Positions 12,001-15,398 of a stretch of 64,000 nt of DNA are shown here, piece by piece. The position numbers are program-made. Numbering within the stretch: the stretch's first letter is position 1; each line of letters begins with the position of its first letter. Location: the NCBI RefSeq assembly GCF_057098645.1, contig NZ_CM169472.1; one strand, written 5' to 3'.

Positions 12001-15000
12001 ATCTCAGAGCAGTGGCACCGGTCAGGCATCTGTCACTTTAAGTTTTAAAGCAGGCACCGATCCGGACGAAGCCGTGCAGCAAGTACAAAACCAGCTGCAA
12101 TCAGCCATGCGAAAGTTACCGCAGGCGGTGCAAAATCAGGGCGTGACGGTGCGTAAAACCGGCGATACCAATATTCTGACCATTGCTTTCGTCTCTACCG
12201 ATGGTTCGATGGATAAACAGGATATTGCCGATTATGTTGCCAGTAATATTCAGGACCCGTTAAGCCGCGTGAATGGCGTCGGGGATATCGATGCCTATGG
12301 TTCGCAATATTCCATGCGTATCTGGCTGGACCCGGCGAAACTCAACAGTTTCCAGATGACGGCTAAAGATGTCACTGATGCCATTGAGTCACAGAACGCG
12401 CAGATTGCGGTTGGGCAACTTGGTGGTACACCTTCCGTCGATAAGCAGGCGCTCAACGCCACCATTAACGCCCAGTCACTGCTGCAAACACCAGAACAGT
12501 TCCGCGATATCACCTTGCGGGTGAATCAAGACGGCTCAGAGGTAAGGCTGGGCGATGTCGCCACCGTCGAAATGGGGGCGGAGAAATACGATTATCTTAG
12601 CCGCTTCAATGGTAAGCCAGCCTCCGGGCTGGGGGTAAAACTGGCCTCCGGCGCAAACGAAATGGCGACAGCGGAGCTGGTGCTCAATCGTCTCGACGAG
12701 CTGGCGCAGTACTTCCCGCACGGACTGGAATACAAGGTGGCGTATGAAACCACCTCGTTTGTTAAAGCCTCCATTGAAGACGTGGTGAAAACGCTGCTGG
12801 AAGCTATCGCCCTGGTTTTCCTCGTTATGTATCTGTTCCTGCAAAACTTCCGCGCCACGCTGATACCCACTATCGCCGTGCCGGTGGTGTTGATGGGAAC
12901 CTTCTCCGTACTTTACGCCTTCGGTTACAGCGTCAACACCTTAACCATGTTCGCGATGGTACTGGCGATCGGTCTGCTGGTGGATGACGCCATCGTGGTG
13001 GTGGAAAACGTCGAACGTATTATGAGTGAGGAAGGACTCACTCCTCGCGAAGCCACACGTAAATCGATGGGGCAGATCCAGGGGGCACTGGTCGGGATTG
13101 CGATGGTGCTTTCGGCGGTATTTGTACCAATGGCCTTCTTCGGCGGCACCACCGGTGCCATCTATCGCCAGTTCTCTATTACCATTGTTGCGGCGATGGT
13201 GCTGTCAGTACTGGTAGCGATGATCCTCACTCCGGCTCTGTGTGCCACACTACTTAAGCCACTGAAAAAAGGTGAGCATCACGGGCAAAAAGGCTTTTTT
13301 GCCTGGTTTAACCAGATGTTTAACCGCAACGCCGAACGCTACGAAAAAGGGGTGGCGAAAATTCTCCACCGCAGCCTGCGCTGGATTGTGATTTATGTCC
13401 TGCTGCTTGGCGGCATGGTGTTCCTGTTCCTGCGTTTGCCGACGTCGTTCTTACCGCTGGAAGACCGGGGCATGTTTACTACCTCGGTACAATTGCCCAG
13501 CGGTTCAACCCAACAACAGACCCTGAAAGTCGTTGAGCAAATCGAGAAATATTACTTCACCCATGAAAAAGACAACATCATGTCGGTGTTTGCCACTGTT
13601 GGTTCTGGCCCTGGGGGTAACGGGCAAAACGTGGCGCGAATGTTTATCCGCCTGAAAGACTGGAGCGAACGCGACAGTAAGACCGGCACCTCGTTTGCCA
13701 TTATCGAGCGTGCAACAAAGGCGTTTAACCAAATTAAAGAAGCTCGCGTTATCGCCAGCAGCCCGCCAGCAATTAGCGGTCTTGGTAGTTCTGCAGGTTT
13801 TGATATGGAGTTGCAGGACCACGCTGGAGCAGGTCACGATGCGCTGATGGCAGCACGTAACCAGTTGCTGGCGCTGGCGGCGGAAAACCCGGAGCTAACC
13901 CGTGTGCGCCATAACGGCCTCGATGACAGTCCGCAGTTGCAGATTGATATCGACCAGCGTAAAGCTCAGGCGCTGGGCGTTGCTATCGACGATATTAACG
14001 ACACACTGCAAACCGCCTGGGGTTCGAGCTATGTGAATGACTTTATGGATCGCGGTCGCGTGAAGAAAGTCTATGTGCAGGCAGCTGCGCCGTATCGCAT
14101 GCTGCCAGATGACATCAATCTCTGGTATGTCCGAAATAAAGATGGCGGCATGGTGCCCTTCTCTGCTTTCGCGACCTCACGCTGGGAGACAGGCTCGCCG
14201 CGTCTGGAACGCTATAACGGTTATTCTGCGGTTGAAATTGTTGGGGAAGCCGCACCGGGGGTCAGTACCGGTACGGCGATGGATATTATGGAATCGTTAG
14301 TGAAGCAGCTGCCAAACGGCTTTGGTCTGGAGTGGACGGCGATGTCGTATCAGGAGCGGCTTTCCGGCGCGCAGGCTCCGGCGCTGTACGCCATTTCCTT
14401 GCTGGTGGTATTCCTGTGTCTGGCGGCATTGTATGAAAGCTGGTCGGTACCGTTCTCGGTAATGCTGGTCGTGCCGCTGGGGGTTATCGGCGCGCTGCTG
14501 GCAACCTGGATGCGCGGGCTGGAAAACGACGTTTACTTCCAGGTGGGCCTGTTAACGGTCATTGGTTTATCGGCGAAAAACGCCATCCTGATCGTCGAGT
14601 TTGCTAACGAGATGAGCCAAAAAGGCCACGACCTGTTTGAAGCGACGCTCCACGCCTGCCGTCAGCGTTTACGCCCGATTCTGATGACCTCGCTGGCATT
14701 TATCTTCGGCGTATTGCCAATGGCAACCAGCACGGGTGCCGGTTCCGGTGGTCAGCATGCGGTGGGTACTGGCGTAATGGGCGGGATGATTTCGGCCACT
14801 ATCCTGGCTATTTACTTCGTGCCGCTGTTCTTTGTGCTGGTGCGCCGCCGCTTCCCGCTGAAGCCGCGCCCGGAATAAGCAATAAAAAAGGCGACATGCT
14901 AATGTGTCGCCTTTTTCAACTTTCCGATTAAGAACCTGCTCAGCGGGTTCTTGCTGTTTGTACTTTGTCTCAGGAATTACTTACGAAGCATAACTTCGAT

Positions 15001-15398
15001 AAAGTCTTTCCAGTTCCCCAGTTCACGTTCAATCATAACAACCTCTCTTATAATTATGGGTATTCTACGGAAACAATATACCGTGGTGAAGCTAATTTAC
15101 TCGATTGCTGCGATGACTACCTCCGGGGGACAAACCTTATGTAAATACTATGGTCCTGCGGTGATGATTTGTATGTGATACACAGCAACATTTCGAGATA
15201 TTCATACGGCATCTAATACTGATTTAATTCTGGTTAAAATACAGACAGATAACAAGATGAATATTCTTAATGTTTACGTTAAAAATGTTTAATATTATTT
15301 AATAGTTGTTAATTTGAATACTTCGATAATGTTATATTTCCTGATAATCATTTGCAGGCAAAATGTTTTCACCCTTAAATGAGTATTTATTCTCATAA

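What the first reader, a model, noticed from the sequence alone, without database searches (positions are those of the whole stretch)
14977..15036. 19-codon ypfM below the ORF-track cut-off
The reverse strand encodes MIERELGNWKDFIEVMLRK, matching a known small protein, in the AT-rich acrD-yffB spacer; it shares a bidirectional terminator with acrD. The rest of the AT-rich spacer (15040..15416) may hold further small ORFs or regulatory RNA that I cannot resolve by eye.
Basis: partly seen in the sequence, partly recalled or inferred. Interest (0 to 1): 0.2.

Follow-up and report, generated by a model that had tools for sequence, protein, structure and literature searches.

The report
Known 19-codon small-protein gene ypfM
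This is the already annotated and experimentally detected E. coli gene ypfM, a real 19-amino-acid protein gene with its own promoter and a terminator shared with acrD; it is ordinary as a finding, and the rest of the spacer holds conserved promoter DNA, not more small genes.

Summary
Window 14977..15036 (- strand) encodes MIERELGNWKDFIEVMLRK*, which RefSeq annotates as ypfM ('protein YpfM') in E. coli. The window is 100% identical to O145:H28 strains.

The gene is real:
- It is kept as a 19-codon ATG ORF between acrD and yffB in 73 of 80 species fetched through yffB.
- Substitutions pile up at third codon positions.
- The intact formyl-Met peptide has been seen by top-down mass spectrometry (PMC12529367).
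- The Salmonella orthologue is the Hfq-associated short mRNA STnc250.

Anatomy:
- A conserved sigma-70 promoter (15090..15062).
- An ~18-nt leader with a GAGAGG Shine-Dalgarno.
- The ORF, then a ~90-nt 3'UTR with a lineage-specific hairpin.
- An A-run/stem/T-run terminator (14884..14916) shared with acrD.

None of nine other small ORFs in the spacer is conserved, and no RNA family or conserved structure was found there. New here is a conserved upstream module that travels with ypfM. It has the geometry of a class II activator-dependent promoter, and its factor is unknown. Synonymous sites in ypfM are also unusually constrained.

The function of YpfM remains unknown; it is probably an amphipathic helix that binds a partner. 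Novelty: already known. Interest: low.

The parts
14977..15036 (-). ypfM coding sequence: 19 codons plus TAA, encoding MIERELGNWKDFIEVMLRK
   Evidence: Translation. RefSeq annotation. Conserved in 73 of 80 species with a coding-type substitution pattern. The peptide has been detected intact by MS.
15042..15047 (-). Shine-Dalgarno GAGAGG, 5 nt upstream of the ATG, inside a highly conserved short leader (15037..~15055)
   Evidence: Read from the sequence. AAGAGAGG is nearly invariant in 65 aligned sequences. Leader conservation is 0.89.
15062..15090 (-). Proximal sigma-70 promoter P1, TTCACC-17-TAGAAT. The predicted start is near 15055; this start is inferred, not mapped.
   Evidence: It is the only promoter-like hit in the scan. 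The same hexamers were assigned to ypfM by genomic SELEX (PMC3946193). The -10 is TAGAAT, TATAAT or TAAAAT in 63 of 74 sequences, and TTCACA with a 17-nt spacer is the commonest -35.
14985..14997 (-). Small hairpin GAAGUUAUGCUUC at the 3' end of the ORF (codons 14-18)
   Evidence: Present in the MFE fold. It is the first helix of the Rfam STnc250 model alignment. It has only 4-6 pairs, and RNAalifold does not support it as a consensus structure.
14929..14953 (-). 3'UTR hairpin (AAGAACC...GGUUCUU), specific to Escherichia. Other lineages carry a different hairpin at the same place.
   Evidence: for the hairpin. The alignment shows different lineage-specific hairpins. Sequence conservation is only 0.23-0.45.
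14884..14916 (.). Bidirectional intrinsic terminator shared by acrD (+) and ypfM (-): A6, stem GGCGACAUG / UGUGUCGCC with loop CUAA, then T5
   Evidence: Terminator scan. Folds on both strands give z = -4.4 on the + strand and are part of a z = -3.3 fold on the - strand. The A-run/stem/T-run is kept in 60 of 68 species, with 42 distinct stems all still paired.
15147..15152 (-). -10-like hexamer CATAGT of a candidate second promoter P2 for ypfM. The predicted start is near 15140, giving a leader of about 104 nt (inferred).
   Evidence: CATAGT (43 loci) or CATATT (16 loci) lies 21 nt (52 loci) or 20 nt (7 loci) downstream of the TCACA of the upstream site.
15165..15200 (.). Conserved operator-like block. 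The core 16-mer is 15174..15189 (TGTGATACACAGCAAC); the consensus is AATTTTATGTGAY-N5-GCAAYATTTTGAAATA.
   Evidence: TGTGA is invariant in 61/61 and G15, C16, A17, A18 are essentially invariant. The block sits 136-152 bp from the ypfM ATG (sd 3.9) but 135-871 bp from yffB (sd 142) in 59 of 73 species. Its centre falls at -41.5 relative to the predicted P2 start.
15094..15116 (.). Conserved block just upstream of the P1 -35 (consensus ATTTAAYCNATTGCTGTGATTG). It carries the same words, TGTGA and an inverted GCAAT, as the distal site.
   Evidence: Alignments. No function was tested.
15201..15228 (+). yffB promoter proposed in the literature (TTCATA-16-TTTAAT), inside the 24% GC stretch reported to bind H-NS
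   Evidence: PMC3946193. It is poorly conserved here, at 0.37-0.50.
15330..15338 (+). TGTTATATT, an extended -10-like element and an alternative candidate yffB promoter
   Evidence: Conserved among closer relatives, but found in only 35 of 81 loci and at variable distance. Low confidence.

Best explanation
This is the known gene ypfM, a free-standing monocistronic small-protein gene.

Shown: a conserved sigma-70 promoter lies 25 nt upstream of the ATG. A short leader carries a strong Shine-Dalgarno. The 19-codon ORF is under purifying selection, and its product has been detected in cells as an intact formyl-Met peptide. The transcript runs into an intrinsic terminator that also serves the convergent gene acrD.

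Inferred: the transcript starts near 15055 and is about 175 nt long. A second, activator-dependent promoter starts near 15140; it uses a conserved site centred at -41.5 and gives a longer mRNA.

Inferred mechanism of the product (my estimate about 0.4): YpfM is a soluble, net-neutral amphipathic alpha-helix. Its invariant hydrophobic face (I2, L6, W9, F12, I13, M16, L17) docks onto a larger protein and modulates it, as other characterised bacterial small proteins do. The partner is unknown.
For: Identity:
- Exact peptide.
- RefSeq annotation at these coordinates in E. coli.
- Present in 5424 of 5426 complete E. coli genomes, at >=99% identity in 5400 records.

Coding:
- Found in 73 of 80 species fetched through yffB, always with an ATG and nearly always with 19 codons.
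- Third-position entropy is 0.59 against 0.17-0.18 at positions 1 and 2.
- Intact in 37/38 relatives, against 0-3/38 for the other spacer ORFs.

Expression:
- Top-down MS gave 100% coverage with a formylated Met, and the peptide was also seen by DIA and PRM (PMC12529367).
- In Salmonella it is a stable short mRNA of about 220 nt, STnc250, with growth-phase-dependent expression (PMC2515195).
- It is abundant in S. Typhi RNA-seq.

Promoter. Terminator.

Helix model:
- Hydrophobic moment 0.546, matched by only 2.8% of shuffles.
- The variable residues 4, 8, 11 and 15 lie 115-175 degrees away from the hydrophobic face, and the invariant hydrophobic residues lie on it.

P2 model:
- Fixed 21-nt spacing and distance locked to ypfM.
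- By my arithmetic from the STnc250 model geometry, the P2 transcript would be about 230 nt. That fits the ~220-nt Salmonella band better than the ~150 nt expected from P1.
Against: - No function or partner of YpfM is known, and none could be tested. At 19 aa the peptide is below the minimum length of every protein-search, structure-prediction and fold-search tool.
- Gene neighbourhood does not point to a partner. Dickeya has ypfM beside yffB without acrD, and Yersinia has it beside the acrD homologue with two genes inserted before yffB.
- Neither transcription start was mapped here.
- The upstream site has a perfect CRP left half but a right half (GCAAY) matching only 2 of 5 CRP positions. 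At that stringency the window holds 190 matches against 219 expected by chance, so the activator is unidentified.
- In this E. coli strain some module positions differ from the family consensus.
Confidence: 0.9

Rival explanations
1. Dual-function RNA. The ypfM mRNA (STnc250) encodes YpfM and also acts as an Hfq-dependent base-pairing regulatory RNA, in the manner of SgrS/SgrT or AzuCR/AzuC.
For: - The Salmonella transcript was enriched 4-fold in Hfq co-IP (6 versus 24 reads) and is a stable short RNA.
- It ends in a strong terminator with a 6-U tail.
- Synonymous codon identity across 71 species is 0.80 for ypfM, against 0.55 for yffB and 0.54 for acrD. Only 9 of 280 matched 19-codon windows reach that value.
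- The non-preferred Gly codon GGG and the stretch GAACUGGGGAACUGGAAAGA are almost invariant.
- No conserved RNA structure explains this constraint.
Against: - The Hfq enrichment is modest and rests on few reads, and the authors classed it as a small mRNA.
- The 3'UTR, where seeds of mRNA-derived sRNAs often lie, is poorly conserved at 0.23-0.45.
- The synonymous constraint has a tail probability of only about 3%. It could instead reflect translation-initiation or codon-usage constraints in a very short, well-expressed ORF.
- No target is known.
Confidence: 0.12
2. The ORF is a chance reading frame inside a purely non-coding sRNA (STnc250).
For: Rfam files the Salmonella locus as an 'Hfq binding RNA'. 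ORFs of this length are abundant by chance.
Against: The substitution pattern is of the coding type, and length and start codon are conserved across 73 species. The peptide was detected directly by several MS workflows. The Shine-Dalgarno sequence is conserved.
Confidence: 0.01
3. The ORF is a regulatory leader peptide or a type I toxin, not a stand-alone protein gene.
For: Its size is typical of leader peptides and of some type I toxins.
Against: - An intrinsic terminator follows, and the next gene on that strand is none: acrD converges on it. There is therefore nothing downstream to attenuate.
- The peptide is hydrophilic and net-neutral (mean hydrophobicity -0.12, 4+/4-), not a membrane-spanning toxin.
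- No conserved antisense promoter or terminator pair was seen.
Confidence: 0.01
4. The remainder of the spacer (15040..15416) hides further small protein genes or an independent regulatory RNA.
For: The spacer is long (380 bp), AT-rich and contains several 20-33-codon ORFs. It has conserved blocks.
Against: - All nine other ORFs are disrupted in relatives, with 0-3 of 38 intact.
- There is no Rfam hit above noise and no terminator-like site in 15040..15416.
- Fold z-scores are about -0.3 on both strands across 60 species.
- Spacer length varies from 202 to 1540 bp.
- The conserved blocks have promoter/operator geometry and are locked to ypfM.
Confidence: 0.04

Closest known systems
E. coli K-12 ypfM / protein YpfM (RefSeq WP_001386977.1)
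   Same: Identical 19-aa sequence, the same position and orientation between acrD and yffB, and the same promoter hexamers as reported by genomic SELEX.
   Different: Nothing of substance. This is the same gene in an O145:H28-like strain.
Salmonella STnc250 (Rfam RF01409, 'Hfq binding RNA')
   Same: Orthologous locus (acrD/yffB, the ypfM ORF). The full-length model alignment covers positions 1-94, including the ORF-end hairpin and the terminator.
   Different: It scores 37.1 bits, below the gathering score of 42. The E. coli 3'UTR has a 37-nt stretch where the model has 13, which is the Escherichia-specific hairpin. The Rfam entry covers only the 3' part of what is really an mRNA.
Characterised small regulatory proteins of E. 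coli such as MntS, MgtS, AcrZ and SgrT (comparison from general knowledge)
   Same: It is a very short, independently transcribed and translated ORF that is conserved in enterobacteria. The working model is modulation of a larger protein.
   Different: AcrZ and MgtS are membrane helices, whereas YpfM is hydrophilic and amphipathic. No partner or phenotype is known. Linkage to the RND pump gene acrD is not universal.
Dual-function RNAs SgrS/SgrT and AzuCR/AzuC (comparison from general knowledge)
   Same: A short Hfq-associated transcript that encodes a tiny protein, with excess nucleotide-level conservation inside the ORF.
   Different: No base-pairing target, no conserved seed outside the ORF and only weak Hfq enrichment.
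Class II CRP/FNR-type activator-dependent promoters (comparison from general knowledge of promoter architecture)
   Same: A 16-bp site centred at -41.5 relative to the start predicted from a conserved -10-like hexamer. It has a perfect TGTGA left half-site.
   Different: The right half is an invariant GCAAY instead of TCACA. The match to the CRP core is at chance level. The start site is predicted, not mapped.

Membership tests
YpfM small protein (NCBI 'protein YpfM') | 19-residue sequence MIERELGNWKDFIEVMLRK or a close variant | tested here: met
   Exact match. RefSeq CDS WP_001386977.1 lies at the same coordinates.
YpfM small protein (NCBI 'protein YpfM') | Located between acrD and yffB, divergent from yffB and convergent with acrD | tested here: met
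   The arrangement is kept in about 70 species.
YpfM small protein (NCBI 'protein YpfM') | Reading frame conserved under purifying selection | tested here: met
   Entropy 0.17/0.18/0.59 by codon position. 211 synonymous against 111 non-synonymous codon differences, the latter concentrated at residues 4 and 15. Intact in 37/38 relatives.
YpfM small protein (NCBI 'protein YpfM') | Translated in vivo | not testable with these tools
   Taken from the literature: intact formyl-Met peptide with 100% coverage, plus DIA and PRM detection (PMC12529367).
Rfam RF01409 STnc250 | Covariance-model score at or above the gathering score (42 bits) | tested here: not met
   37.1 bits, E = 1.4e-5, model positions 1-94. 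The shortfall is explained by the 3'UTR insertion. Orthology is nevertheless clear from synteny and the ORF.
Rfam RF01409 STnc250 | Same genomic locus as the Salmonella RNA (acrD/yffB spacer, contains the ypfM ORF) | tested here: met
   PMC2515195 Table 2 and its footnote. Synteny.
Bidirectional intrinsic (Rho-independent) terminator | G+C-rich stem-loop flanked by an A-run on one side and a T-run on the other, between convergent genes | tested here: met
   A6-GGCGACAUG/loop/UGUGUCGCC-T5 at 14884..14916. Kept in 60/68 species, with 42 stem variants all still paired.
Bidirectional intrinsic (Rho-independent) terminator | Actual termination of both transcripts in vivo | not testable with these tools
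   Needs term-seq or 3' end mapping.
Dual-function (coding + base-pairing) sRNA | Binds Hfq | not testable with these tools
   From the literature only: 4-fold co-IP enrichment with low read counts.
Dual-function (coding + base-pairing) sRNA | Conserved single-stranded seed and identified target mRNAs | tested here: inconclusive
   There is no conserved sequence in the 3'UTR. Excess synonymous constraint exists inside the ORF, but no target search was possible.
Class II CRP-dependent promoter | Activator site centred near -41.5 | tested here: inconclusive
   The geometry is met relative to a predicted start: 21-nt spacing in 52 of 59 loci. The start site is not mapped.
Class II CRP-dependent promoter | Two CRP half-sites, TGTGA-N6-TCACA | tested here: not met
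   The left half is perfect in 61/61. The right half is an invariant GCAAY, matching 2 of 5 positions. At 3 mismatches the window has 190 matches against 219 expected by chance.
Type I toxin / leader peptide | Hydrophobic membrane peptide, or a regulated gene downstream on the same transcript | tested here: not met
   The peptide is hydrophilic and net-neutral. A terminator and the convergent gene acrD follow it.

The most novel reading that the evidence does not exclude
The ypfM transcript does more than carry a message. Its ORF contains a nucleotide-level constrained island (GAACUGGGGAACUGGAAAGA, with the non-preferred GGG Gly codon almost never replaced) that would act as an Hfq-dependent base-pairing or protein-binding RNA element. 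Its expression would be switched by an unidentified activator binding the invariant TGTGAY-N5-GCAAYATT site at -41.5 of a second promoter. ypfM would then be a regulated dual-function RNA like AzuCR or SgrS.
Probability: 0.12. Interest if true: 0.45.

Novelty: already known. Interest (0 to 1): 0.12.

Why it matters
As a scan result it matters little. ypfM has been in the E. coli annotation for over two decades, and its product is among the small proteins most often seen by mass spectrometry. It is useful as a positive control: a reader working by eye recovered a genuine 19-codon gene that falls below ORF-length cut-offs.

The by-products may help whoever finally works out YpfM's function. They are a conserved, ypfM-locked upstream module with class II promoter geometry and an unknown factor, a conservation pattern that fits an amphipathic partner-binding helix, and unusually constrained synonymous sites. 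Together they suggest where to look for its regulator, and they show that protein and RNA functions need to be separated genetically.

Tried and rejected
Family scans, PDB search, structure prediction and fold search all have minimum lengths of 20-30 aa, so they were not attempted.
2. Foundational papers (Wassarman 2001, Hemm 2008 and 2010) are not held in the library. I rely on citations of them in PMC2515195.
3. A structure-conserved hairpin in the variable G+C-rich stretch 15095..15147. Rejected: mean fold z is about -0.3 on both strands across 60 species.
4. A conserved RNA structure in the leader and ORF to explain the synonymous constraint. RNAalifold predicts no pairs.
5. CRP as the factor for the upstream site. 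The match is at chance level, and the growth medium in the MS study (M63-glucose, overnight) is uninformative.
6. By-eye comparisons of the block with Fur, MntR, IHF, Lrp, CytR, marbox and sigma-54 consensus sequences, recalled from memory. All gave partial matches only, and none is claimed.
7. acrD as functional partner by co-occurrence. The loci lacking ypfM also lack acrD, but Dickeya has ypfM without an adjacent acrD, so this is only adjacency.
8. Phage-borne copies: none in viral contigs.
9. A first attempt to locate conserved blocks using the E. coli sequence with few mismatches failed, because E. coli departs from the family consensus. It was redone with consensus cores.
10. The sigma-S SELEX peak that lists ypfM lies inside acrD and is irrelevant here.
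Full report
**What is there**

The reverse strand of window 14977..15036 reads ATG ATT GAA CGT GAA CTG GGG AAC TGG AAA GAC TTT ATC GAA GTT ATG CTT CGT AAG TAA. This translates to MIERELGNWKDFIEVMLRK*. The 1-kb region around it is 100% identical to E. coli O145:H28 chromosomes. It is present in 5425 of 5426 complete E. coli genomes, and RefSeq annotates the ORF as ypfM, 'protein YpfM' (WP_001386977.1). The gene sits between acrD (+) and yffB (+). The 141-bp core (ORF, leader and promoter) is >=99% identical in 5400 records.

**Is it more than a chance ORF?**

Short ORFs are abundant here, with 99 of >=20 aa in 6.5 kb, so conservation is the test. To avoid circularity I fetched 80 loci from 80 species through the neighbouring gene yffB and then looked upstream.

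- In 73 of the 80 there is an ATG ORF divergent from yffB that encodes a near-identical peptide. It has 19 codons in 71 of them.
- There are 56 distinct DNA sequences. Mean column entropy is 0.17, 0.18 and 0.59 bits at codon positions 1, 2 and 3.
- Amino-acid changes are concentrated at residues 4 and 15.
- In a 39-sequence alignment of the whole spacer, ypfM is intact in 37 of 38 relatives. Nine other ORFs of 20-75 codons, including the overlapping alternative frame, are intact in 0-3.

**Published evidence**

- The second criterion, no translation signal, also fails. YpfM was detected intact with 100% sequence coverage and a formylated initiator Met by top-down proteomics, and also by DIA and PRM (PMC12529367).
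- In Salmonella the locus is STnc250. It was first listed as an Hfq-associated sRNA candidate and then recognised as the ypfM small mRNA. It gives a stable band of about 220 nt with growth-phase-dependent expression and 4-fold Hfq co-IP enrichment (PMC2515195).
- In S. Typhi RNA-seq it had the highest coverage value among the 52 Hfq-associated ncRNAs those authors mapped.
- Rfam's STnc250 model aligns end to end at 14878..14997(-) but scores 37.1 bits, below the gathering score of 42. The reason is that Escherichia carries a longer 3'UTR segment with its own hairpin.

**Gene anatomy**

- The only sigma-70-like site in the region is TTCACC-17-TAGAAT at 15090..15062(-). These are the same hexamers assigned to ypfM by genomic SELEX (PMC3946193).
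- They are conserved: the -10 is TAGAAT, TATAAT or TAAAAT in 63 of 74 sequences, and TTCACA with a 17-nt spacer is the commonest -35.
- The -10 ends 25 nt before the ATG, so the leader is about 18 nt (inferred). It carries a nearly invariant AAGAGAGG, 5 nt from the ATG.
- Downstream of the stop codon, sequence conservation collapses to 0.23-0.45. Each lineage nonetheless has some hairpin there; in E. coli it is at 14929..14953.
- The transcript then meets A6-GGCGACAUG-CUAA-UGUGUCGCC-T5 at 14884..14916, which begins 6 nt after the acrD stop codon. This A-run/stem/T-run layout is kept in 60 of 68 species, with 42 different stems that all remain paired. The claim of a shared bidirectional terminator is supported at the level of sequence and evolution.

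**The rest of the spacer**

The spacer is AT-rich, down to 24% GC, and is reported to bind H-NS. Its length varies from 202 to 1540 bp between species. I found none of the following:

- a conserved ORF;
- an Rfam family;
- a terminator-like site;
- a conserved fold.

The suggestion of further small ORFs or a regulatory RNA is therefore not borne out.

The spacer does contain a conserved module. Its first part is TAnTATG (15146..15152). Its second part, 21 nt further on, is AATTTTATGTGAY-N5-GCAAYATTTTGAAATA, with core 15174..15192.

- The module is found in 59 of 73 species.
- It sits 136-152 bp from the ypfM ATG (sd 3.9), while its distance to yffB ranges from 135 to 871 bp (sd 142). It therefore belongs to ypfM.
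- Read on the ypfM strand, it is AATATTGC-N6-TCACA, then 21 nt (52 loci) or 20 nt (7 loci), then CATAGT or CATATT.
- If CATAGT is a -10 hexamer, the start is near 15140 and the 16-bp site is centred at -41.5, the class II activator position.
- TGTGA is invariant in 61/61, but the other half is an equally invariant GCAAY, not TCACA. At that level of mismatch the CRP core pattern occurs at chance frequency in the window, with 190 found and 219 expected.
- I therefore call it an activator-type site for an unidentified factor.
- A transcript from this start would be about 230 nt in Salmonella-like geometry. That is closer to the reported ~220-nt band than the ~150 nt expected from the proximal promoter. 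This is my arithmetic and is an inference.
- A weak MarA ChIP peak has also been reported between ypfM and yffB in Salmonella.

**The product**

YpfM is hydrophilic and net-neutral (4+/4-). It has a helical hydrophobic moment of 0.546, and only 2.8% of shuffles do as well. The variable residues 4, 8, 11 and 15 all lie opposite the hydrophobic face, while I2, W9, F12, I13, M16 and L17 are invariant and lie on it. This fits an amphipathic helix that binds a partner or self-associates through one face.

It does not fit two alternatives. It is not a membrane toxin, and it is not a leader peptide, because a terminator and a convergent gene follow it. The partner is unknown. Adjacency to acrD is common but not universal.

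**An unexplained extra**

Among codons whose amino acid is unchanged, the codon itself is identical to E. coli's in 80% of cases for ypfM. The figures for yffB and acrD in the same species are 55% and 54%. Only 9 of 280 matched 19-codon windows reach the ypfM value. The stretch GAACUGGGGAACUGGAAAGA, with the non-preferred GGG codon, is almost invariant, and no consensus RNA structure accounts for it. Together with the Hfq association, this leaves room for an RNA-level role, which I put at about 0.12.

**Verdict**

This is an already known, correctly identified gene. Interest is low. The conserved upstream module and the synonymous-site constraint are modest leads for the still unknown function and regulation of YpfM.

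Noticed in passing
window 15146-15200 (core 15174-15192): A conserved module, TAnTATG, then 21 nt, then TGTGAY-N5-GCAAYATT. It is locked in distance to ypfM (sd 3.9 bp) but not to yffB (sd 142 bp). It has the geometry of a class II activator-dependent promoter on the ypfM strand, and its right half-site is not CRP-like. The factor is unknown.
   Followed up: partly
window 14977-15036, especially 14993-15024: Synonymous sites of ypfM are much more conserved than in the neighbouring genes: 0.80 against about 0.54 codon identity, with 9 of 280 windows as high. The non-preferred Gly codon GGG is nearly invariant. No conserved RNA structure explains it.
   Followed up: partly
window 15094-15116: A second conserved block lies just upstream of the ypfM -35 (consensus ATTTAAYCNATTGCTGTGATTG). 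It repeats the words TGTGA and an inverted GCAAT found in the distal site. In this strain TGTGA has become TGCGA.
   Followed up: no
window 14929-14953 and the corresponding 3'UTRs in L004, L020, L026 etc.: Every lineage has a hairpin between the ypfM stop codon and the terminator, but its sequence differs completely between lineages: AAGAACC.. in Escherichia, ATCCTTTGCAGGAT in Citrobacter, TGTGTGA..TCACACT in Enterobacter. This explains the sub-threshold Rfam STnc250 score.
   Followed up: partly
L051, L063, L068, L073-L076 (upstream of yffB): The seven species lacking ypfM upstream of yffB also lack acrD there. Other genes occupy the site: an Rce1-like protease gene, DUF6708 genes, and a colicin pore-domain gene in Erwinia piriflorinigrans (L074:105-1784).
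   Followed up: partly
window 15201-15228 versus 15330-15338: The yffB promoter proposed in the literature (TTCATA-16-TTTAAT) is poorly conserved. An extended -10-like TGTTATATT nearer to yffB is better conserved among close relatives, though only in 35 of 81 loci.
   Followed up: partly
window 25174-25189, 9617-9632, 24139-24154, 30492-30507 and 59873-59888: Five one-mismatch matches to the CRP core consensus turned up in the control search: CGTGATCAAGATCACA, TGTGAGCCATGACACA, TGTGAACACCATCACC, TGTGATTAGCGTCAAA and TTTGATCTCGCTCACA. Their gene context was not examined.
   Followed up: no
E. coli genome collection: One of about 5440 matches to the acrD-ypfM-yffB region lies on a record typed as a plasmid, some genomes carry two copies, and one strain (NZ_CP148398.1) matches only 45% of the 141-bp core. 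These were not inspected.
   Followed up: no
window 16932-17132 (+): Another annotated small-protein gene, ypfN (66 aa), lies just downstream of dapE in the same window (an ORF with an upstream GTG is listed).
   Followed up: no
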